Origin: Candidatus Levyibacteriota bacterium
GTDB taxonomy: Bacteria > Patescibacteriota > Microgenomatia > Levybacterales > UBA12049
DNA: 64,000 bases
Direction: 5' to 3'
NCBI GenBank assembly: GCA_963716145.1
Contig: OY970292.1
Coordinates: forward strand, 268,104 to 332,103
Below are positions 35,796 to 44,484 of this stretch, in pieces. Made by a program: the position numbers and the translations under genes. Every line of letters starts with the position of its first letter. The first letter of the stretch is position 1. The notes beneath the pieces are model-generated. The model worked only from the letters and a program-made list of their open reading frames with translations, was not told the origin of the DNA and did no database searches.

Positions 35796-35851
35796 GAAGG
35801 AATATTATACATCAGGGGAGTAACAAAGAAAACGCTAAGGCAAAATCAGTG

Positions 35852-36561: not shown

Positions 36562-36588
36562 CTATAGGATGCATCGTGTGAACATTTG

Positions 36589-36671
36589 TGCGGATGAGAG
36601 GAGTTGAACCTCCACGCCCTTGCGAGCACTACCACCTCAAGGTAGCGTGTATACCATTTCACCACATCCGC
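36589..36671 (-). tRNA. tRNA-Leu(GAG)
   Basis: Type II tRNA. Acceptor GCGGATG/CATCCGC, anticodon stem CTACC/GGTAG with loop TTGAGGT, long variable arm. Confidence 0.8.
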
Positions 36672-36711: not shown

Positions 36712-37111
36712 CTAAGAATGCGTTAGACTTTTGGAAAAGCCAATTAATTGCTTACCCACCTCTTCTGCCATAACTAATGCCTGATTCATTTCTTTCTGAT
36801 TAATACAACCATCATCCAATGCTAAATCAAGGCCTGCTATCACTTCTTCAAGCGATGTTAACGCCTGATTAAGAAAATGTGCTTTCTTTGTCTGTTGCCC
36901 TATTTGACCCTTCAGCAATATTTAAACACACTGACAATGCTGCTCGATTAATTTGATCAATTAGAACAAATCGTTCTGTCGCTGGTAACTTCTTTAATAA
37001 ATTCTTAACGAGCTTTCTAAATTCCTTTGACTTTTTATATACTGGAAAATCTCTAAATCTAAATAGCATATATTTTGCTGCGCAAAATAACTTTGAACAA
37101 AAAACATTCAA
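36712..37111 (-). CDS. four-helix-bundle protein (23S rRNA intervening-sequence protein family), frameshifted
   Basis: 36869..37111 has FPVYKKSKEFRKLVKNLLKKLPATERFVLIDQINRAALSVCLNIAEGSNR. 36712..36918 continues with FLNQALTSLEEVIAG... Removing one A at about 36893-36900 gives a continuous protein. Confidence 0.6.
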
Positions 37112-37185
37112 CTTAGAACTCCAAGGAATAATTGTTCTCTGTTCCTGGTTCTTAGCTCTGTGTAGTTCAGCTTCGCTGAACTATG

Positions 37186-37269
37186 TGCCGAAGAGGGGAC
37201 TTGAACCCCTACCTCTTTAACAAGACACGAACCTGAATCGTGCGCGTCTACCAATTCCGCCACTTCGGC
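37186..37269 (-). tRNA. tRNA-Leu(CAG)
   Basis: Acceptor GCCGAAG/CTTCGGC, anticodon stem CACGA/TCGTG with loop TTCAGGT, long variable arm. Confidence 0.8.
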
Positions 37270-38794: not shown

Positions 38795-38876
38795 GCGGAC
38801 GTGGTGAAATGGTAGACACGCAAGTTTTAGGAACTTGTGCTCAAAAGGCTTGGAGGTTCAAGTCCTCTCGTCCGCA
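38795..38876 (+). tRNA. tRNA-Leu(TAG)
   Basis: Acceptor GCGGACG/CGTCCGC, anticodon stem CAAGT/ACTTG with loop TTTAGGA, long variable arm, T-loop GTTCAAG. Confidence 0.8.
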
Positions 38877-38891
38877 CTCAACAATAAAACT

Positions 38892-39722
38892 ATGACAAAA
38901 TCATTAATCGAAAAACAGCCAGACGGAACAATCAAATTGACAATTTCAATTCCTAAAGAGCTTATATCCAAGGCTCGTGAGAAAGCTATAATTGATGTGA
39001 GTAAGCACACCAACGTTCCTGGTTTTAGGAAGGGAAAAGCTCCTGAAAAACTGGTTGAGGAAAAATTAAATAAAGAACAAATAGATGAAGACGCTCTTAA
39101 GGAACTTCTTCCTATGCAGTATCAGCAAGCAGTTGTGGAACATCAATTGAGGCCAGTTATGAACCCCAAGATACATATCAACAAGATGGAAGAAGGTAAA
39201 GATTGGACATTTGAAGCGCTAACCTGCGAAGCCCCAGCAGTTGAGGCCGGAGATTACAAAAAAAGTGTTCAAAAAGTAACAGCAAAAAGTAAAATAATCA
39301 TACCTGGAAAAGAACCGCAGAAGCCTTCATTTGAAGATATCGCCAAAGCCCTACTTGAAACTTCAACTGTAAAAGTTCCGACAATTCTACTTGAGCAGGA
39401 AACAGATAGACTTTTGGCACAGCTTCTCAATGATATTAAAAAACTTGGGCTCAACCTTGAACAATATCTGGCGTCAACCAAACGAACACCGGACGATCTG
39501 CGTGCCGAATATTCCAAAAGAGCGGAAGATGATATGAAGCTGGAATTTGTCTTGCAAAAAATTGCAGAACTTGAGAAAATAACAGTTGAGGAGAAAGAGA
39601 TAGAAGAGGCGATTCAAAAAGCAAAATCTGAGGAAGAAAAAAAGCATTTACAGGGCAATAAATACCTTCTCGCGGCGATACTAAGACAACAGAAAACACT
39701 TGATTTTTTGATGAGTTTGTGA
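38892..39722 (+). CDS. tig: trigger factor (short form lacking PPIase domain)
   Basis: Start set at ATG 38892, because the ORF-track start 38835 overlaps the tRNA. Ribosome-binding signature GFRKGKAP. About 277 aa with N- and C-domains only. Confidence 0.75.
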   Translation: MTKSLIEKQPDGTIKLTISIPKELISKAREKAIIDVSKHTNVPGFRKGKAPEKLVEEKLNKEQIDEDALKELLPMQYQQAVVEHQLRPVMNPKIHINKMEEGKDWTFEALTCEAPAVEAGDYKKSVQKVTAKSKIIIPGKEPQKPSFEDIAKALLETSTVKVPTILLEQETDRLLAQLLNDIKKLGLNLEQYLASTKRTPDDLRAEYSKRAEDDMKLEFVLQKIAELEKITVEEKEIEEAIQKAKSEEEKKHLQGNKYLLAAILRQQKTLDFLMSL

Positions 39723-39737
39723 TAGGATTACGCTGCT

Positions 39738-40421
39738 ATGGCAAGCAAAGTTTCAAAAAAGCGAATAATTAGAAATCACCTTGAAGCAGTTACCAATATT
39801 GGTGACTCAACCGGTATTGCAAAAGGTGTGGGAAAGTCTTTAATAGATGACTTGGCGTTGGATGGTGGAAAAGACTTCCTCAGCTTCCTCGGGATGGATA
39901 CCGGATCTGACAAAAAAAATTCTGCACACGAAGCTTCTTCTGAAGATCAAAAACATGACGCAGACGGATCAATTGATATAGTCAATTTCAAAACCAAATC
40001 CTTTGAGAAAAAAGCCAGACATATAGAACAGCGTGTTGAGGCTGCTATTGATTATCACCGTGACATTGTCAGATCTTCCGAAAGAGCATCAAGCCAGGAA
40101 TTGCAAGTAAGACAAAGTCAGATTCAGCAACTTAGAATGGAGATACAATCCCTTGTAAGCTCAACCAAAATGCTGCAAATGGAATTTGCACAGATTACAA
40201 CTGAGCAATCAGTCGCAAGCGTAGGAGCATATCATGAGCACTTCTTTGAATGGATAATAAAACAGGTTAAGGCGGCACGCGAAAACGTAGAAAATTCAAG
40301 TTCGTGCATGAACATACAGAAAAATAAAGCCGGCAAAAAAGGCTATTGGGGAATGTTCAAAAAACACGGCACAAGCTTCGCCATGTCAAACGAGCGCGGT
40401 GTAGCAACCCAGGTCGGATAA
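39738..40421 (+). CDS. hypothetical protein
   Basis: 227 aa, no recognisable family. Confidence 0.4.
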   Translation: MASKVSKKRIIRNHLEAVTNIGDSTGIAKGVGKSLIDDLALDGGKDFLSFLGMDTGSDKKNSAHEASSEDQKHDADGSIDIVNFKTKSFEKKARHIEQRVEAAIDYHRDIVRSSERASSQELQVRQSQIQQLRMEIQSLVSSTKMLQMEFAQITTEQSVASVGAYHEHFFEWIIKQVKAARENVENSSSCMNIQKNKAGKKGYWGMFKKHGTSFAMSNERGVATQVG

Positions 40422-40460
40422 ACGCTTGACTCGTCAACAAAAGTTTGATATTATCAATTT

Positions 40461-40508
40461 ATGAAATCACAAATTGCATTCACATTGGCACTTCTCCTTA
40501 CCCGATAG
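40461..40508 (+). CDS. putative Leu-rich leader peptide MKSQIAFTLALLLTR
   Basis: 15 codons. Four Leu codons within LALLL (TTG GCA CTT CTC CTT). The stop lies inside hairpin 1:2 of the downstream attenuator. Confidence 0.5.
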   Translation: MKSQIAFTLALLLTR

Positions 40509-40559
40509 GGCGGGAGAAGTCGTTGTGTTGAAAATCCCGCCAACTGAGCGGGTTTTTTT
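40490..40559 (+). promoter_or_regulatory. transcription attenuator (alternative 1:2 / 2:3 / 3:4 hairpins + U7 terminator)
   Basis: Segment 1 ACTTCTCC (40490-97) pairs with GGAGAAGT (40513-20). Segment 2 GGCGGGA (40509-15) pairs with TCCCGCC (40535-41). Terminator CCCGC-caactga-GCGGG + TTTTTTT (40536-40559). The three structures are mutually exclusive. Confidence 0.6.
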
Positions 40560-40597
40560 GTGGTTTTAGGATTAAAAATCAAAAGGAGGTAAAAATT

Positions 40598-41377
40598 ATG
40601 GGAGTTAGACAAGAAACAAACGAAAGAGGAGAAAGATTTAGAATCAAGGAAGGAGACCATACATGGCGCAGATTTGCTGCAAAAGCCATAAATGATTTGA
40701 GTCCTGATTCAGTCACTGTTAAGCGAGGAGAAAAAGGACAGCTTAGAATTGCGCACGCAGACAATAATCCTTTTGGAGCCTTTGTGCGTACAGCATATTA
40801 CCTTGATATTTCGTTGGAGGGTATTTATCCGGGTACTGGCGAGGAAGGAAGGGGATTTAACCGTGAGAGAGAGGCAGTAGTTAAAAAAATATTAGCACCA
40901 ATTTTCCGTGAGCATAGGACAAATGCAAATGAGCCTGGTAATCAAAGGGTAACGTGGCCTGATCCACAACACAATACATGGGAAAGTTTTGCAGCAACCG
41001 TAGTGAATGAAAAATATCCAAGATCAGTAACATTAACAGGGGAAAGACAATTTGGTCAATTGGGAGTCTTTGCCGCGCCAGATAGCCCATACAGGCTATT
41101 TGAAAGGACAGCGAGGTATACAGCTTCCTCGCTGGAAGATGTTATTCCAGATGCAGATAAACGTGTTGCCACAACGCAAGCCATATTAAGACCCATTTTT
41201 TCAACTCATATGGAGAAGCAAGAGGCTGAAAAAACAACGGAAATTGGCGGCGTAGTATATAGGAGAGTTACGGTCAGACCAGCAAGAGGCGCGGATTCGA
41301 TTAGGAGGGAATTGAGAATTAAACCAAAAGTGGGTAGAACAAGAGTAGAATATGTAGGAAACGGAAGAATAAGATAA
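40598..41377 (+). CDS. hypothetical Arg/Glu-rich protein with internal ~90-aa duplication
   Basis: 259 aa. Strong SD AAAGGAGGT 8 nt upstream. Repeat units end ILAPIFREH / ILRPIFSTH. GC-rich and compositionally atypical. Confidence 0.5.
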   Translation: MGVRQETNERGERFRIKEGDHTWRRFAAKAINDLSPDSVTVKRGEKGQLRIAHADNNPFGAFVRTAYYLDISLEGIYPGTGEEGRGFNREREAVVKKILAPIFREHRTNANEPGNQRVTWPDPQHNTWESFAATVVNEKYPRSVTLTGERQFGQLGVFAAPDSPYRLFERTARYTASSLEDVIPDADKRVATTQAILRPIFSTHMEKQEAEKTTEIGGVVYRRVTVRPARGADSIRRELRIKPKVGRTRVEYVGNGRIR

Positions 41378-41387
41378 ATCAATTAAT

Positions 41388-41435
41388 ATGAAAAAAGTAA
41401 TTTACAGTTTGGTAGTACTCCTCATAGCCCCTTAA
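41388..41435 (+). CDS. putative branched-chain (Val/Leu/Ile)-rich leader peptide MKKVIYSLVVLLIAP
   Basis: 15 codons, 8 of them Val/Ile/Leu. Followed by nested hairpin TGGATT..CACCC-gccaacag-GGGTG..AATCCA + T6 (41455-41498). Confidence 0.5.
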   Translation: MKKVIYSLVVLLIAP

Positions 41436-41540
41436 CGGCGGGGGTACGACGTAGTGGATTGAATCACCCGCCAACAGGGTGGGAAGAATCCATTTTTTGC
41501 AAATTGACATTCCCTAGGCCGATTTGCTATCATTCAATTA

Positions 41541-41585
41541 ATGGTAGCGCAAAAATTTATTATTGAGATTATTATTGCTCCTTAG
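41541..41585 (+). CDS. putative Ile-rich leader peptide MVAQKFIIEIIIAP
   Basis: 14 codons, five ATT Ile codons in IIEIII. The stop TAG sits in the CTCC-ttag-GGAG hairpin. Promoter-like TTGACA-18-TATCAT at 41504-41533 upstream. Confidence 0.55.
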   Translation: MVAQKFIIEIIIAP

Positions 41586-41610
41586 GGAGGGTTTCTAGGC
41601 ACGCGCTTTG

Positions 41611-41634
41611 AACCTCCCCAACGGGAGTTTTTTT
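41611..41634 (+). terminator. attenuator terminator CCTCCC-caac-GGGAG + T7
   Basis: The 5' arm is complementary to GGGAGGG (41586-41592) immediately after the leader stop, giving an antiterminator alternative. Confidence 0.6.
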
Positions 41635-41747
41635 GTATACAAAAATTATTTATAAATAGTATACAATCCGCCAAGAGTGCTCCTTGAGCCGTGTTCGAAT
41701 AGAACTGAAAAGGCGAAAGGTAAACGACGGCGGATGTGAATTTAAAT

Positions 41748-43015
41748 ATGGACAAAGTAACAGTCAAAACAATAGACGAGGCGGAAAAAGTGCTTGAAAA
41801 TGTGATACGCAAAACGCCGCTTCAGTATAACAAACGGCTTTCCGATTTATATGGGCCAAAATATACTTTAAACGCGAAGATCTGCAAGATGTCCGCTCAT
41901 ACAAAATAAGAGGCGCGTACAACCTGATGAATAGCCTAACGGCAAAAGAAAAATCAAAAGGCGTTGTGACAGCCAGCGCGGGAAACCATGCGCAGGGAGT
42001 AGCGATGAGTGCATATATTCTCAAGATAAAAGCTACAATTTTTATGCCTGTAATCACACCTCTTCAAAAAATTAATAAAGTAAAACATTTTGGAAAAGAA
42101 TGGATAACAGTAAAACTTGTGGGGCAGGTGTATGATGATGCCTCTAATGCTGCGCATCAGTATTGCGAAGAAAACAAACAAACATATGTTCACCCTTTCA
42201 ATGATCCGCGCACCATATCAGGGCAAGGGACAGTCGGAAAAGAGATTTTGGAACAACTGGAAGAAAAAAGCCTGCCAACCAAAGGAAAAGTTGATTTTGT
42301 TTTTTGCCCGATTGGCGGAGGCGGACTCATATCAGGAGCTGGCACTTACATCAAAACAAAATTCCCAGATGCAAAAATCATTGGAGTTGAGCCAAAAGGT
42401 GCTCCCGCAATGCTTGAGGCCTTCAAACAGAAAAAAGTAGTGACCCTCAAAAAGATAGACACTTTTGTCGACGGTGCAGCAATAACGACTGTTGGAGAAT
42501 TGAGCTTCAAGATTGCCTCAAAAGTCACTGACAAAATCGTGGTGAGCGATGAAGGGAAAGTCTGTGTAACTATGGTTGATCTTTACCAAAACGAGGGAAT
42601 AATCGCAGAACCCGCCGGAGCATTATCGATTTCAGCACTGGACGAATTTGCTAAAGAAATTAAAGGAAAAACTATAGTTTGTGTCTTGAGTGGGGGAAAT
42701 AATGATATTCTGCGTTATCCTGAGATAATGGAAAAGAGTCTGGTTTATAAAGGCTTGAAGCACTATTTTCTGATTGAGTTCGCTCAAAAACCCGGACAAT
42801 TAAGACAATTCCTCAATCACGCCCTGGGTCCGAGAGATGATATAGTTTTATTTGAATACATAAAAAGAAACTCCAGAGAAAAAGGACCGGCACTTATCGG
42901 GGTTGAGCTGAGTAAAAAAGAAGATCTTTCTCTTCTTCTTGACAACATGGACAAATTGCAGATACGCTATACAAAGATCACAGCAGACGACCCTCTTTAC
43001 GGGTTTGTGCTCTAA
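41748..43015 (+). CDS. ilvA: threonine dehydratase (threonine ammonia-lyase) with C-terminal regulatory domain, split by a frameshift in this assembly
   Basis: PLP motif SYKIRGAY, ASAGNHAQGVA, GGGGL. The N-terminal 53 codons are in another frame. Adding one A to the A4 run at 41858-41861 gives ...LSDLYGPKIYFKREDLQDVRSYKIRGAY... Confidence 0.85.
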
Positions 43016-43027
43016 TATTACTTCTAT

Positions 43028-43405
43028 ATGAAAATTATAAAAACAGATAATGCCCCAGCAGCAGTTGGCCCATATTCACAAGCAATTATAAGCAATGGTT
43101 TTGTTTTTTGCTCAGGTCAAATAGGACTAGATCCCAAAACAGGAGAGTTAAAGGGAGCGGATATAATTTCTCAGACAACTCAAATAATTTTTAATCTAAA
43201 ATCAGTGCTTGAGCAAGCAGGAAGTTCGCTGCAAAACGTTGTTAAAACTACTTGCTATCTAACTGATATTTCAGATTTCCAGAAATTCAATGATATTTAC
43301 GCAAAGCACTTCATATCCTCTCCTGCGCGGGCAACAGTTGAGGTATCTCATCTCCCAAAAGATGCTATAGTTGAGATCGAAGCGATCGCCGAAATCAATT
43401 CATGA
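43028..43405 (+). CDS. ridA: RidA/YjgF family enamine/imine deaminase
   Basis: 125 aa. DNAPAAVGPYSQAI...VKTTCYL...PARATVEV signature. The classic ilvA-ridA pairing. Confidence 0.9.
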   Translation: MKIIKTDNAPAAVGPYSQAIISNGFVFCSGQIGLDPKTGELKGADIISQTTQIIFNLKSVLEQAGSSLQNVVKTTCYLTDISDFQKFNDIYAKHFISSPARATVEVSHLPKDAIVEIEAIAEINS

Positions 43406-44484
43406 TCAATCAAGATAGACTGGTACAAACCTTCCTCGATCTGGTAAAGATAGACAGCCCCTCAGGTGATGAAAAAGAAATATCAAAATTTGTTGCGAAA
43501 AAATTAAAAAATTTAGGCGGAAAAGTTGTATTTGATAATTATGGAAACCTAATTGCGAAATTTGGAGGAATAGGCGAGTCCTTTATGCTCAACAGTCACT
43601 TGGATACCGTTGAGCCGGGACGCGGAATAAAACCAAAAATTCTAGGAGACAAAATAGTCTCATATGGAACGACAATACTTGGCGGGGACGCGAAAGCTGG
43701 CGTCGCGGTTATACTTGAAACGCTTGAATCGCTAAAAGAAGATCGTAGAAAGCCTGTCCCCATTGAAGTTGTACTTACGCTGGAGGAGGAGATAGGCTTG
43801 AAGGGGGCAGTAAATCTTGATTACTCCAAAATCCATTCAAAAATAGGAGTAACATTTGACGGAGATAAATCAGGCGTTGAAAATATTACTGTCTCAGCTC
43901 CGGGATATAACACAGTTGATGTTGAAATTATCGGTTGGGCTGCGCACGCCGGTTCTGAACCGGAGAAAGGAATTTCCGCAATTAAAATCGCCGCCGAAAT
44001 CATAACCCATCTTGAAGTTGGAAGGATTGATCAAGAAACTACTGCCAATGTCGGGTTGATTGAAGGAGGTAGCGCGCGAAACACAGTCCCTGAGAATGTG
44101 CATTTTAAAGCTGAGATAAGAAGCCGCAGTCTTACAAAACTTGAAAAGCATTCCATACATTTTGAACAGGTTTTCAAAATGGTTTCAGCAAAATATCCTG
44201 CAGCTAAAATTAAGTTGAATATTCAACGGGAATTTGATCCATACTTTTTTGTGGAAACTCAAGACGTGATACAGCAAATTAGCAAAGCGCTTAAAAAGAT
44301 TGGGCTGAAACCAAAACTGGGATCAGCAGGCGGGTCATCTGATGTTAATATCTTTTACGCACACGGAATAGAAGCAGTATGCGTGGGTGGCATGTATTAC
44401 AATCCGCACACAACAAGGGAATATGTTAAAATTTCAGATTTGGTAAATGGAGCCCGATTTTGCGAAGAATTGGTCCTAAATTAG
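43402..44484 (+). CDS. M20 family peptidase (peptidase T-like)
   Basis: 360 aa. HLDTV, GGDAKAG and EEEIGLKGA metal-binding motifs of M20B/PepT. Confidence 0.8.
   Translation: MINQDRLVQTFLDLVKIDSPSGDEKEISKFVAKKLKNLGGKVVFDNYGNLIAKFGGIGESFMLNSHLDTVEPGRGIKPKILGDKIVSYGTTILGGDAKAGVAVILETLESLKEDRRKPVPIEVVLTLEEEIGLKGAVNLDYSKIHSKIGVTFDGDKSGVENITVSAPGYNTVDVEIIGWAAHAGSEPEKGISAIKIAAEIITHLEVGRIDQETTANVGLIEGGSARNTVPENVHFKAEIRSRSLTKLEKHSIHFEQVFKMVSAKYPAAKIKLNIQREFDPYFFVETQDVIQQISKALKKIGLKPKLGSAGGSSDVNIFYAHGIEAVCVGGMYYNPHTTREYVKISDLVNGARFCEELVLN

What the first reader, a model, noticed from the sequence alone, without database searches (positions are those of the whole stretch)
40461..41377. Leu-rich leader attenuator driving an unknown internally duplicated 259-aa Arg/Glu-rich protein with a strong SD
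A 15-codon ORF MKSQIAFTLALLLTR with three consecutive Leu codons inside segment 1 (ACTTCTCC). Segment 1 pairs with GGAGAAGT. GGCGGGA (overlapping that arm) pairs with TCCCGCC, which is also the 5' arm of terminator CCCGC-caactga-GCGGG + U7. The downstream gene has a near-perfect SD (AAAGGAGGT) and atypical GC/Arg-rich composition. It consists of two ~90-aa repeats (…ILAPIFREH / …ILRPIFSTH) and has no recognisable enzyme motif. A Leu-sensing attenuator controlling a non-biosynthetic-looking protein is unusual and could represent a novel amino-acid-responsive function (regulator, binding protein, or acquired gene).
Basis: partly seen in the sequence, partly recalled or inferred. Interest (0 to 1): 0.7.

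Follow-up and report, generated by a model that had tools for sequence, protein, structure and literature searches.

The report
Leucine-sensing attenuator driving an orphan protein
In a small-genome Levybacteria-like (CPR) bacterium, a classic leucine-sensing leader-peptide switch, apparently started without any 5' untranslated region, controls a leucine-poor, arginine-rich protein found in only a handful of related genomes. It sits immediately upstream of a second, isoleucine-sensing switch for the threonine dehydratase gene ilvA.

Summary
Window 40461-40559 has the full anatomy of a ribosome-mediated transcription attenuator. A strong promoter ends 6 nt before the ATG of a 15-codon ORF (MKSQIAFTLALLLTR). 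Three alternative pairing segments and a U7 terminator follow.

Orthologous Leu-rich leaders occur in six other related loci. In one of them the leader precedes a LeuA-family gene. The same RNA design, with matching amino-acid runs, precedes ilvB, leuA, ilvA, pheST, serS and aromatic genes in low-GC metagenome contigs.

ORF259 (40598-41377) is a genuine gene with native codon usage. It fuses two copies of a ~100-aa domain to a basic tail. In relatives these are separate small genes at the same locus, usually directly behind the Leu leader. Only six proteins among 5.8 billion carry the domain. It has no Pfam, PDB or fold match.

The family is strongly Leu-depleted (3.3% against 9.5%), which fits expression under Leu limitation.

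Two more attenuator units follow. One is Val/Leu/Ile-type and partly degenerate. The other is Ile-type, has its own promoter, and controls ilvA-ridA-M20.

The regulatory mechanism is a known kind. The lineage, the inferred leaderless start and the cargo are new. The protein's function remains unknown.

The parts
38795..38877 (+). tRNA-Leu(UAG). It is one of three tRNA-Leu genes clustered just upstream (context only).
   Evidence: ARAGORN; Rfam tRNA
38835..39722 (+). Short trigger factor gene. This is a conserved backbone gene. The true start is probably at an internal ATG.
   Evidence: Pfam Trigger_N and Trigger_C; the same gene is present in all related loci
39738..40421 (+). DUF5660 gene. 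This is a conserved backbone gene, and the variable region begins right after it.
   Evidence: Pfam DUF5660, E = 1e-28; its relatives were used to find the orthologous loci
40426..40454 (+). Promoter P1: TTGACT, 17-nt spacer, TATTAT with an upstream TG. The -10 hexamer ends 6 nt before the leader ATG, so the leader mRNA is probably leaderless.
   Evidence: Promoter scan, 10 of 12 matches. The -10-to-ATG distance of 6-7 nt recurs in orthologous and paralogous units.
40461..40508 (+). Leader ORF 1, MKSQIAFTLALLLTR plus stop. The regulatory Leu codons CUU-CUC-CUU lie at 40491-40499.
   Evidence: Sequence. Orthologs are MKSQISITLALLLTR, MKSQIAYTLSLLLNP, MKSQKSITLVLLLNP and MKSQNLITSVLLLNP.
40481..40498 (+). 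Segment 1 (CACAUUGGCACUUCUCC). It pairs with segment 2 and lies inside the leader ORF over the Leu codons.
   Evidence: MFE folds; pair counts
40508..40526 (+). Segment 2 (GGGCGGGAGAAGUCGUUGUG). Its 3' part pairs with segment 1. Its 5' part, GGCGGGA, pairs with segment 3 to form the antiterminator. It starts at the last base of the stop codon.
   Evidence: Constrained folds; 2:3 duplex at -15.6 kcal/mol
40535..40541 (+). Segment 3 (UCCCGCC). It is shared between the antiterminator (2:3) and the terminator (3:4).
40536..40559 (+). Intrinsic terminator: CCCGC, loop caacuga, GCGGG, then U7 (segments 3:4).
   Evidence: Terminator scan; fold at -7.8 kcal/mol
40582..40590 (+). Shine-Dalgarno sequence AAAGGAGGT for ORF259.
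   Evidence: Sequence. Equally strong SDs precede the family's genes in L084, L085, L215 and L217.
40598..41377 (+). ORF259: 259 aa, pI 10.0, Arg 12.7%, Leu 4.2%. It is a fusion of repeat A, repeat B and a basic tail.
   Evidence: An independent assembly gives an identical ORF.
40598..40927 (+). Repeat-domain copy A (residues 1-110).
   Evidence: An HMM built from non-window members hits ORF259 at E = 1.9e-17. The AF2 model has pLDDT 75 and the order beta-alpha-beta-beta-alpha-alpha.
40928..41215 (+). Repeat-domain copy B (residues 111-206).
   Evidence: BLASTP of A against B, E = 1e-14; two HMM domains
41216..41374 (+). Basic 'tail' domain (residues 207-259; the 55 residues 205-259 have pI 11.2). 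In relatives it is a separate 54-69-aa gene.
   Evidence: By-eye alignment, with a profile trained on five members (L085 ORF69, L096 ORF64, L089 ORF54, the L084 fragment and this tail). No held-out test was run.
41388..41498 (+). Unit 2: leader ORF MKKVIYSLVVLLIAP (41388-41435), then GGCGGGGG, CACCCGCC, and a long terminator hairpin with U6. It has no promoter or SD of its own. The antiterminator is weak here, so it is probably mainly the ORF259 terminator.
   Evidence: The ortholog in L084 (MKKVFNSLVVLLISP) precedes the single-repeat gene. CM hit at 74 bits.
41504..41533 (+). Promoter P3: TTGACA, 18-nt spacer, TATCAT. The -10 hexamer ends 7 nt before the leader 3 ATG.
   Evidence: Promoter scan, 11 of 12 matches
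41541..41634 (+). Unit 3: Ile-type leader MVAQKFIIEIIIAP (41541-41585) and an attenuator with GGGAGGG, CCUCCCC, GGGAG and U7. It controls ilvA.
   Evidence: Orthologs are in L019, L082, L084, L085, L096, L215 and L093.
41748..43015 (+). ilvA (threonine dehydratase with a C-terminal regulatory domain). In the window it is broken by a 1-nt deletion in a G run at 41856. It is intact (422 aa) in the Logan assembly.
   Evidence: Pfam PALP and Thr_dehydrat_C
43028..43405 (+). ridA (RidA/L-PSP family), in the same operon as ilvA.
   Evidence: Pfam Ribonuc_L-PSP, E = 2e-41
43402..44484 (+). M20-family peptidase, the last gene of the operon. M20 genes recur in attenuator-controlled operons of relatives.
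   Evidence: Pfam; synteny

Best explanation
Window 40426-40559 is a leucine-responsive, ribosome-mediated transcription attenuator of the classical leader-peptide type. It is built on what is probably a leaderless transcript.

Proposed sequence of events:
1. RNA polymerase starts at or next to the A of the leader ATG (40461). A ribosome translates the 15-codon leader.
2. When Leu-tRNA is plentiful, the ribosome runs to the UAG. The UAG overlaps the first base of segment 2, so segment 2 cannot pair with segment 3. The 3:4 hairpin plus U7 terminates transcription.
3. When Leu-tRNA is scarce, the ribosome stalls on CUU-CUC-CUU. The stalled ribosome covers segment 1 but leaves GGCGGGA free. GGCGGGA pairs with UCCCGCC (-15.6 kcal/mol, against -7.8 for the terminator). 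The terminator cannot form and the polymerase reads into ORF259, which is then translated from a very strong SD.
4. Without any translation, 1:2 plus 3:4 form and transcription terminates.

ORF259 is a native, lineage-restricted gene. It was made by duplicating a ~100-aa domain and fusing it to a small basic protein. In related genomes these are separate genes at the same locus, and in four relatives they lie directly behind the orthologous Leu leader. In L084 the repeat gene follows the unit-2 leader. The leader DNA of the P0103 contig could not be read.

Downstream, unit 2 (Val/Leu/Ile type, with a weakened antiterminator) mainly terminates the ORF259 transcript. A separate promoter with an Ile-type attenuator controls ilvA-ridA-M20.

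Shown here: anatomy, conservation, co-variation, correspondence between leader codons and gene function across the attenuator class, and the reality and Leu-poverty of the protein family.

Inferred: the transcription start site, leaderless initiation, the actual Leu response, and any protein function. My best guess for function is a basic, possibly nucleic-acid- or ribosome-binding or IlvA-modulating, starvation protein. Confidence in that guess is low.
For: Anatomy.

Constrained folding: with the A site on L12 or L13 the MFE is the 2:3 antiterminator. With the ribosome at T14, R15 or the stop, and in free RNA, the terminator forms.

Energies: 2:3 is -15.6 and 3:4 is -7.8 kcal/mol. The 2:3 duplex is the stronger in 26 of the 30 related units tabulated.

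Conservation: orthologous Leu leaders occur in L084, L085/86, L096, L217, L215 and L089/90. Synonymous changes are seen (UCA/UCG, AUU/AUA, GCA/GCU, and a CUU-CUC-CUU / CUC-CUU-CUU permutation). The stop codon abuts GGCGGG in every case.

Leaderless start: the -10 hexamer lies 6-7 nt before the ATG in 9 of the 13 units tabulated, and again in the L217 and L215 units.

Specificity logic within the same RNA design:
- Leu run before a LeuA-family gene (L084, L118, L211).
- Ile run before ilvA (window, L019, L082, L084, L085, L096, L215).
- Ile/Val/Leu before ilvB (L019, L103, L111, L010).
- Phe/Tyr before pheST and DAHP synthase / pheA.
- Ser before serS.

Three-way co-variation of segments 2, 3 and 4 between classes: GGCGGG/CCCGCC/GCGGG, GGAGG/CCUCC/GGGAG, and GGCGGUUGA/UCAACCGCC/GGCGG.

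Pair counts: 89% of cells are paired, against 52-65% with slid partners. Six pairs have changes on both sides. None of 500 shuffles reach the observed values.

Protein:
- In-frame codon score is 0.20, against -0.07 to -0.58 in the other five frames.
- An independent assembly gives the same sequence.
- Family homology by leave-out HMMs, E = 1.6e-9 to 1.9e-17.
- Only six members among 5.8e9 proteins, all between the DUF5660 gene and ilvA wherever the context could be read.
- Leu is 4.2% in ORF259 and 3.3% pooled, against a 9.5% background, binomial P = 4e-15.
Against: - There are no expression data of any kind. The transcription start, leaderless initiation and the Leu response are all inferred.
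- For two orthologs (L085, L096), the thermodynamic MFE with the ribosome on the Leu codons still shows the terminator plus a small local hairpin. Antitermination there would depend on co-transcriptional kinetics.
- Three consecutive Leu codons are fewer than in the E. coli leu leader (recalled from memory). The Leu codons used are not all rare: CUU is the commonest Leu codon at 32%, and CUC is 9%.
- The stems GGCGGG/CCCGCC are nearly invariant among the Leu-type units. Co-variation within this class is therefore limited, and part of the wider set was ascertained with a pattern containing those stems.
- RNAalifold on the seven closest units found almost no covariation term.
- Leu depletion could partly reflect the Arg/Gly-rich, possibly disordered composition rather than selection for synthesis under Leu limitation.
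- The 'tail' family rests on a by-eye alignment and a profile that hit only its own training members.
Confidence: 0.78

Rival explanations
1. The three units form a serial, multivalent control of ilvA, and ORF259 is essentially a passenger. Transcripts from P1 must pass a Leu gate, a Val/Leu/Ile gate and an Ile gate to add to ilvA expression. This would mimic with three separate leaders what E. coli does with the single ilvGMEDA leader (recalled from memory). It is not mutually exclusive with the best explanation.
For: All three units lie on one strand in series upstream of ilvA. Unit 2 has no promoter of its own and is conserved in L084. The repeat family sits immediately upstream of the ilvA leader in the five genomes where the whole context could be read.
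Against: - The ilvA leader has its own strong promoter, P3 (11 of 12 matches). The closest relatives (L082, L019) manage with that unit alone.
- The window's unit 2 has a strong terminator (-15.9 kcal/mol) and a weak antiterminator, so little read-through is expected.
- L089/90 keeps the Leu leader plus the tail gene with no ilvA at the locus.
- ORF259 has its own very strong SD and is conserved as a coding frame.
Confidence: 0.2
2. Unit 1 no longer senses leucine. It would be a decayed duplicate of the ilvA leader that now acts only as a constitutive partial terminator or insulator. Alternatively, its ~100-nt terminated RNA or its hydrophobic 15-aa peptide would be the functional product, acting as a small RNA or micropeptide.
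For: - The units are clearly paralogous, and one of them (window unit 2) does look partly degenerate.
- Abstracts listed by the literature search describe trans-acting attenuator RNAs and leader peptides in Sinorhizobium (rnTrpL and peTrpL; PMC6614838, PMC7298713).
- All the leader peptides are hydrophobic.
Against: - The Leu run, the ORF length, the stop position relative to segment 2, and all three pairing segments are kept in seven related loci, despite 26-49% amino-acid divergence of the neighbouring DUF5660 gene in those loci where both were compared.
- Synonymous permutation of the Leu codons keeps LLL.
- The amino-acid identity of the run tracks the downstream gene across the class. That is not expected for a peptide or small RNA acting on its own.
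- The 2:3 duplex is stronger than 3:4.
Confidence: 0.1
3. ORF259 is not a functional protein gene. It would be a mis-framed gene, a pseudogene, or a recent de novo or fused ORF without function.
For: - The exact 259-aa architecture is unique to this genome.
- The window assembly carries at least one frameshift, in ilvA.
- The L084 copy of the tail gene has an in-frame stop.
- The single-sequence AF2 model is poor, pLDDT 43.
- The locus is highly variable between relatives.
Against: - There is no stop in 259 codons of a 41%-GC region.
- The in-frame codon score is 0.20, against -0.07 to -0.58 in the other frames.
- An independent assembly gives the identical ORF.
- Both repeats and the non-window members detect each other with HMMs.
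- The two repeats are only 39% identical yet keep the same motifs, which argues for long-term constraint.
- With a 7-sequence MSA, AF2 gives pLDDT 75 and pTM 0.66 for the domain.
- Strong SDs are conserved in front of every family member.
Confidence: 0.06

Closest known systems
Enterobacterial leu operon attenuator (leuL leader peptide; Rfam Leu_leader RF00512)
   Same: A short leader ORF carries a run of consecutive Leu codons. Four RNA segments form mutually exclusive 1:2, 2:3 and 3:4 pairings. A Rho-independent terminator ends in a U run. Read-through occurs when the ribosome stalls for lack of Leu-tRNA. In the relative L084 the orthologous leader precedes a LeuA-family gene, as in E. coli.
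   Different: - The organism is a CPR/Levybacteria-like bacterium.
- The leader has 15 codons with 3 consecutive Leu plus 1 more, instead of 28 codons with 4 consecutive (E. coli figures recalled from memory).
- The start is probably leaderless rather than SD-led.
- There is no sequence-level membership: 19.7 bits against the gathering score of 50.
- In the window the controlled gene is an orphan, non-enzymatic-looking protein, not leuABCD.
Corynebacterium glutamicum ilvBNC (and, from memory, leuA and trp) leader-peptide attenuators on leaderless transcripts
   Same: Ribosome-mediated attenuation in which the leader peptide is translated from a leaderless mRNA. PMC11857589 discusses leaderless initiation of the ilvBNC leader. 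It responds to branched-chain amino acids.
   Different: The phylum is different (Actinobacteria). That system has a three-hairpin model with a hairpin that blocks initiation. Its cargo is biosynthetic genes only. Here the leaderless start is inferred only from promoter-to-ATG spacing.
E. coli ilvGMEDA multivalent attenuator (ilvL)
   Same: Branched-chain amino-acid leader control of the threonine dehydratase gene ilvA. Window units 2 (Val/Leu/Ile) and 3 (Ile) upstream of ilvA serve the analogous purpose.
   Different: In E. coli one leader mixes Leu, Val and Ile codons (from memory). Here the specificities are split over separate tandem units, ilvA has its own promoter and Ile-only leader, and an unrelated protein gene sits between the units.
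E. coli pheST attenuator and other attenuators in front of non-biosynthetic genes
   Same: It is precedent that leader-peptide attenuators can control genes other than biosynthetic operons. The same RNA design precedes pheST and serS in related contigs.
   Different: Those cargos have an obvious link to the sensed amino acid. The ORF259 family has none beyond its Leu depletion.

Membership tests
Ribosome-mediated (leader-peptide) transcription attenuators | A short ORF with a run of codons for the sensed amino acid, placed over or just before segment 1 | tested here: met
   MKSQIAFTLALLLTR, with the LLL codons at 40491-40499 inside segment 1. The LLL run is kept in five orthologs; L089 has a dispersed Leu/Val/Ile run.
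Ribosome-mediated (leader-peptide) transcription attenuators | Mutually exclusive 1:2, 2:3 and 3:4 pairings, with 3:4 being an intrinsic terminator followed by a U tract | tested here: met
   Folds and constrained folds; terminator scan. The 2:3 duplex is -15.6 and the 3:4 hairpin is -7.8 kcal/mol.
Ribosome-mediated (leader-peptide) transcription attenuators | The stop codon is positioned so that a terminating ribosome masks segment 2 | tested here: met
   The UAG at 40506-40508 overlaps the first G of GGGCGGGA. The same abutment is seen in 20 or more related units.
Ribosome-mediated (leader-peptide) transcription attenuators | Evolutionary support: conserved structure with compensatory change, and leader codons that match downstream gene function | tested here: met
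   Three-way co-variation of segments 2, 3 and 4 between classes. Pair counts are 89% against 52-65% with slid partners. Leader specificity matches ilvA, ilvB, leuA, pheST, serS and aromatic genes. Caveat: covariation within the Leu class is weak.
Ribosome-mediated (leader-peptide) transcription attenuators | Read-through that responds to the charging level of the cognate tRNA | not testable with these tools
   This needs in vivo or coupled in vitro transcription-translation assays.
Rfam Leu_leader (RF00512) and Trp_leader (RF00513) | A score at or above the family's gathering threshold | tested here: not met
   Leu_leader scores 19.7 bits (gathering score 50). Trp_leader scores 22.9 bits (gathering score 41). 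Both hits lie on 40480-40561. There was no hit in gathering mode.
Leaderless mRNAs | A transcription start at, or within a few nucleotides of, the start codon, with no SD | tested here: inconclusive
   The -10 hexamer ends 6 nt before the ATG. This spacing of 6-7 nt is kept in 9 of the 13 units tabulated, and again in the L217 and L215 units. No 5'-end data exist. L096 and L089 have 14-16 nt instead.
T-box or other riboswitch leaders | A match to a curated RNA family, a long structured leader, and a specifier or T-box sequence | tested here: not met
   Rfam found nothing but sub-threshold leader-peptide families. The whole leader is only ~100 nt.
Any known protein family, for ORF259 | A significant sequence or fold match | tested here: not met

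The most novel reading that the evidence does not exclude
The repeat and tail proteins may form a CPR-specific effector module for leucine starvation. They would be small, highly basic, Leu-poor proteins made only when Leu-tRNA runs low. Two targets seem possible. One is threonine dehydratase or branched-chain flux: for example, restraining IlvA so that acetolactate synthase serves the Val/Leu branch. The other is the ribosome or RNA, acting as a hibernation-like factor. The attenuator-driven slot between the DUF5660 gene and ilvA would then act as a nursery. In it such genes arise, duplicate, fuse and turn over quickly.
Probability: 0.2. Interest if true: 0.8.

Novelty: new variant of a known kind. 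Interest (0 to 1): 0.62.

Why it matters
CPR/Patescibacteria are usually described as metabolically minimal symbionts with few recognisable regulators. I found no paper that links them to leader-peptide attenuation.

This locus and its relatives suggest that at least Levybacteria-like lineages use a whole set of classical attenuators. These appear to be built on leaderless transcripts and are tuned to Leu, Ile, Ile/Val/Leu, Phe/Tyr and Ser.

This gives a sequence-only handle on which amino acids these uncultured organisms monitor, and on which genes they treat as starvation responses.

The Leu-controlled cargo is a nearly orphan, fast-evolving, Leu-depleted protein family. A precise physiological label ('made when leucine is short') can therefore be attached to proteins of completely unknown function. 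That makes them directly testable.

The locus also records gene duplication and fusion, and attenuator duplication, at a rearrangement hot spot.

Tried and rejected
- Atypical GC or recent horizontal acquisition: rejected. The GC profile and native codon usage argue against it, and tblastn finds nothing in phages or plasmids.
- Mis-framed gene: rejected. The other five frames score far lower, and no long overlapping ORFs exist.
- Defence-system protein: no PADLOC hit.
- T-box or riboswitch: no Rfam family reaches threshold.
- Structure-based function:
  - The single-sequence AF2 model was useless, pLDDT 43.
  - The afdb50 library was not available.
- Profile search against PDB sequences: only noise.
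- RNAalifold on the closest units gave almost no covariation term, because the sequences are too similar. Support had to come from cross-class comparison and from the wider alignment.
- Search of the 64-kb window for ilvB, leuA, leuCD and aminotransferase genes, using relatives' sequences as queries: none found. The ilvN and L084 LeuA-like queries in that run were mis-framed and are not informative.
- The more distant CPR ilvA loci (L002, L003, L010) have ilvA inside larger ilv operons, so they are not informative about ORF259.
Full report
**1. What is in the window**

- A sigma-70-type promoter lies at 40426-40454: TTGACT, 17-nt spacer, TATTAT, with an upstream TG. It matches 10 of 12 positions.
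- The promoter ends 6 nt before an ATG at 40461. This opens a 15-codon ORF, MKSQIAFTLALLLTR, with its stop at 40506-40508.
- The three consecutive Leu codons CUU-CUC-CUU (40491-40499) lie inside segment 1.
- Segment 2 (GGGCGGGAGAAGUCGUUGUG, 40508-40526) begins at the last base of the stop codon.
- Segment 3 is UCCCGCC (40535-40541).
- The terminator is CCCGC-caacuga-GCGGG plus U7 (40536-40559).
- The leader folds much better than shuffles: -37.2 kcal/mol, z = -3.6, 0 of 200 shuffles as good.
- AAAGGAGGT lies at 40582-40590, with GGAGG 8 nt before the ATG of a 259-aa ORF (40598-41377).

The one part of the observation that fails is 'atypical GC'. GC across the ORF is 0.40-0.43, like its surroundings. 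Its codon usage is native: in-frame score 0.20, against 0.25 +/- 0.06 for the window's genes and -0.07 to -0.58 for the other five frames.

Arg enrichment is real (12.7% against 3.9%). So is the internal duplication (39% identity over 88 aa, E = 1e-14).

**2.

Two more leader/attenuator units follow on the same strand.

- Unit 2 (41388-41498) starts 11 nt after the ORF259 stop. It encodes MKKVIYSLVVLLIAP and is followed by GGCGGGGG, CACCCGCC and a long hairpin with U6.
- Unit 3 (41541-41634) has its own strong promoter: TTGACA, 18-nt spacer, TATCAT at 41504-41533, 11 of 12 matches. That promoter ends 7 nt before the ATG of MVAQKFIIEIIIAP. The pairing segments are GGGAGGG, CCUCCCC and GGGAG plus U7.
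- Unit 3 precedes ilvA (threonine dehydratase with its regulatory domain), ridA and an M20 peptidase.

In the window, ilvA is split by a 1-nt deletion in a G run at 41856. An independent Logan assembly of the same locus (L001, one gap and no mismatches over 5846 nt) has GGGG there and an intact 422-aa ilvA. Its ORF259 is identical.

**3. Folding logic**

I ran constrained folding with a ribosome footprint. For unit 1:

- Free RNA forms 1:2 plus 3:4, which is termination.
- With the A site on L12 or L13, the GGCGGGA:UCCCGCC antiterminator forms.
- With the ribosome on T14, R15 or the stop codon, the terminator forms.

The 2:3 duplex is worth -15.6 kcal/mol and the terminator -7.8.

Unit 3 behaves the same way with its Ile run. 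Its untranslated state is a long 1:4/2:3 hairpin that also ends at the U tract.

The window's unit 2 is the exception. Its terminator is strong (-15.9 kcal/mol) and the antiterminator overlaps it only partly. I read it mainly as the ORF259 terminator, possibly a decaying attenuator.

**4. Orthologous loci**

The organism is a Levybacteria-like CPR bacterium. The best ilvA relative is a Candidatus Levyibacteriota MAG at 67% identity, followed by Roizmanbacteria and other Patescibacteria. The contig is 1.14 Mb.

I found relatives through the neighbouring DUF5660 protein and looked up their contigs. The conserved backbone is tig, DUF5660, a variable slot, then optionally ilvA-ridA, then M20, DUF5665, thrS, infC, rpmI, rplT and pheST. 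The slot after DUF5660 varies widely:

| Locus | Content of the slot, in order |
|---|---|
| L082/83, L019 | One Ile-type leader (MKRQGSIISIIINS; MTIKNISIKIITS), then ilvA |
| L084 | P + MKSQISITLALLLTR attenuator; a LeuA-family gene (HMGL-like + HCS_D2 + LeuA_dimer); a tail-like ORF; unit 2 (MKKVFNSLVVLLISP); SD + a 168-aa single-repeat protein; P + Ile leader; ilvA |
| L085/86 | P + MKSQIAYTLSLLLNP; SD + a 110-aa repeat protein; SD + a 69-aa tail protein; P + Ile leader; ilvA |
| L217 | P + MKSQNLITSVLLLNP; SD + a 106-aa repeat protein; SD + a tail protein |
| L215 | P + MTTKHAIILSLLLNLA; SD + a 116-aa repeat protein; a 99-aa ORF; Ile leader; ilvA |
| L096 | MKSQKSITLVLLLNP; SD + a 64-aa tail protein; Ile leader; ilvA |
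| L089/90 (no ilvA) | MKNRTSTLLVILNLA; SD + a 54-aa tail protein |
| P0103 contig | DUF5660, a 106-aa repeat protein, a 135-aa ORF, ilvA (no DNA was available) |

The Leu-type leader is therefore conserved in seven related loci. Synonymous substitutions keep the peptide, including a permutation of the Leu codons.

The cargo is the repeat and/or tail genes. In L084 the first gene behind the leader is instead a LeuA-family gene. The window's ORF259 is repeat + repeat + tail fused into one frame.

**5. The attenuator class**

I scanned metagenome contigs for GGCGGG-N15-28-CCCGCC-N4-9-GCGGGTTTTTT. I also built a covariance model from seven units.

Both recover many low-GC contigs in which a 13-21-codon ORF ends exactly at segment 2. 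The amino-acid run in that ORF matches the downstream genes:

- ..QLIVVLITH, ..QIIVVLITH and MKKILITVVLLVAH precede ilvB(N).
- MKSVNKNLIIVNILINLP and MKTNNIIIVNILINQP precede an aminotransferase plus ilvB.
- ..LLNLILLARFKAGR precedes leuA, leuCD and leuB.
- ..NAFFFTS and ..NWFYFYFTS precede pheST.
- ..KFYSYFYPE and ..GYFFYFFYHFIS precede DAHP synthase and prephenate genes.
- ..SPSSMSS precedes serS.

Across these classes, segments 2, 3 and 4 change together: GGCGGG/CCCGCC/GCGGG; GGAGG/CCUCC/GGGAG; GGCGGUUGA/UCAACCGCC/GGCGG. The 2:3 duplex is the stronger in 26 of the 30 units tabulated.

On the 27-sequence alignment, 89% of cells are paired, against 52-65% with slid partners. Six pairs show double changes, and 0 of 500 shuffles reach the observed values. 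Two caveats apply. That alignment is fitted to the model, and part of the set was ascertained by a pattern that contains the stems.

In 9 of the 13 units tabulated, the -10 hexamer ends 6-7 nt before the ATG. The L217 and L215 units show the same spacing. This argues for leaderless leader ORFs, as discussed for the C. glutamicum ilvBNC leader (PMC11857589).

Rfam gives only sub-threshold hits, and they are to leader-peptide families: Trp_leader at 22.9 bits (gathering score 41) and Leu_leader at 19.7 bits (gathering score 50). Full-text searches found no paper joining CPR/Patescibacteria with leader-peptide attenuation.

**6. The protein**

- ORF259 has no hit in Pfam, NCBIfam, PHROGs or PADLOC.
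- phmmer against 1.84 billion cluster representatives finds only itself.
- Homology to the small syntenic proteins is nonetheless firm. An HMM of the three non-window members hits ORF259 at E = 1.9e-17 among 26,329 ORFs. An HMM of the two smallest members hits it at 1.6e-9.
- A profile of five repeats against 5.8 billion proteins returns just six proteins.
- The 'tail' family rests on weaker evidence. I aligned its five members by eye, and a profile built from them hit only those members among 26,329 ORFs. No held-out test was run.
- AF2 on repeat A with a 7-row alignment gives pLDDT 75 and pTM 0.66, with the order beta-alpha-beta-beta-alpha-alpha.
- There is no tblastn hit in phages or plasmids.
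- The proteins are basic: pI 10.0 for ORF259 and 10.7-11.3 for the tails. The 168-aa member is an exception at pI 4.9.
- They are markedly Leu-poor. ORF259 has 4.2% Leu, the second lowest of 49 window ORFs of at least 150 aa. The family pooled has 3.3%, against a 9.5% background, binomial P = 4e-15. This is what one expects of proteins that must be synthesised when Leu-tRNA is limiting, although composition bias is an alternative cause.

**7. Interpretation**

The regulatory element is, with good confidence, a Leu-responsive leader-peptide attenuator of the classical kind. It probably starts as a leaderless mRNA.

It is paralogous to the Ile-type ilvA leader. Positionally it matches the single leader found right after the DUF5660 gene in the closest relatives.

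Its cargo is a native, fast-evolving, lineage-restricted module. In this genome the module has been duplicated and fused.

What the protein does is not shown by any result. Its strict adjacency to ilvA, its opposite regulatory signal (Leu against Ile), its basic charge and the translation-centred neighbourhood lead me to two low-confidence guesses:

- a modulator of IlvA or branched-chain flux;
- a ribosome- or RNA-binding starvation factor.

Both are marked as inference.

**8. Verdict**

Its interpretation is supported and extended.

In mechanism this is a known kind of regulator. The new elements are the phylum, the inferred leaderless architecture, the tandem arrangement of three specificities, and a Leu-controlled orphan protein family.

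Noticed in passing
window 41856 (within ilvA, 41748-43015): The window has GGG where an independent Logan assembly of the same locus (L001) has GGGG. The 1-nt difference splits ilvA into two ORFs (41736-41909 and 41927-43015). It is either a homopolymer assembly error or a real inactivating variant.
   Followed up: partly
window 36588-36671 (-), 37185-37269 (-), 38795-38877 (+): Three tRNA-Leu genes (anticodons GAG, CAG, UAG) cluster within 4 kb upstream of the Leu-sensing leader. By standard wobble rules, tRNA-Leu(GAG) is the isoacceptor expected to read the leader's CUU and CUC codons. tRNA-Val genes lie at 35851 and 44592.
   Followed up: no
L103, L111, L116, L118, L125, L169, L170, L172/173, L200, L211, L010, L002, L003; L019 893-989(-); L091 13454-13549; L089 8967-9092: The same attenuator design occurs widely in low-GC (CPR-like) contigs. 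The leader ORF ends at a G-rich segment 2, followed by a C-rich segment 3, a terminator and a U tract. The leader codon runs match the downstream genes: ilvB, leuA, an aminotransferase plus ilvB, pheST, DAHP synthase and pheA, and serS.
   Followed up: partly
L087 7765-9432, L091 7702-9361, L094 5724-8375, L216 (both attenuators, minus strand), L101 1100-1200(-), L097/L208: Leu/Ile/Phe-type leaders of this class also precede large proteins of 364 to 686 aa that have no significant Pfam match where tested (L101, L091 and L097/L208 were not scanned). Some look like amino-acid ligases by eye. They are usually followed by an M20-family peptidase, which is also the last gene of the window's ilvA operon. 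This may be a second set of unknown starvation-controlled genes.
   Followed up: partly
window 41635-41747; L084 9737-9800: About 55 nt between the unit-3 terminator and the ilvA start are almost identical in the window and L084 (gtatacaaaaattatttataaatag[t/c]atacaatccgccaagagtgctccttgag). The neighbouring DUF5660 proteins of these two loci are only 66% identical. L096 has a different sequence there. The function is unknown. It could be an extra promoter or an RNA element.
   Followed up: no
L084 8450-8677 and 8706-8872: In L084 the LeuA-family gene behind the Leu leader appears frameshifted near its LeuA_dimer domain. The tail-like ORF after it carries an in-frame TAG. These are either long-read assembly errors or decaying genes.
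   Followed up: no
slot after the DUF5660 gene in L084, L085, L087, L089, L091, L094, L096; window 40422-41747: The slot between the DUF5660 gene and ilvA, M20 or thrS holds a different set of lineage-specific ORFs in almost every relative (ORF184, ORF61, ORF99, a 135-aa ORF, and proteins of 515-543 aa). Large serine recombinase genes lie a few kb upstream in several relatives. The slot looks like a rearrangement or gene-birth hot spot.
   Followed up: partly
window 36869-37111 (-): An 80-aa ORF sits between the two upstream tRNA-Leu genes. By eye its sequence (…LIDQINRAALSVCLNIAEGSNR…) resembles the 23S rRNA intervening-sequence / four-helix-bundle protein family. A gene with that Pfam (23S_rRNA_IVP) lies at a similar position in L096.
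   Followed up: no
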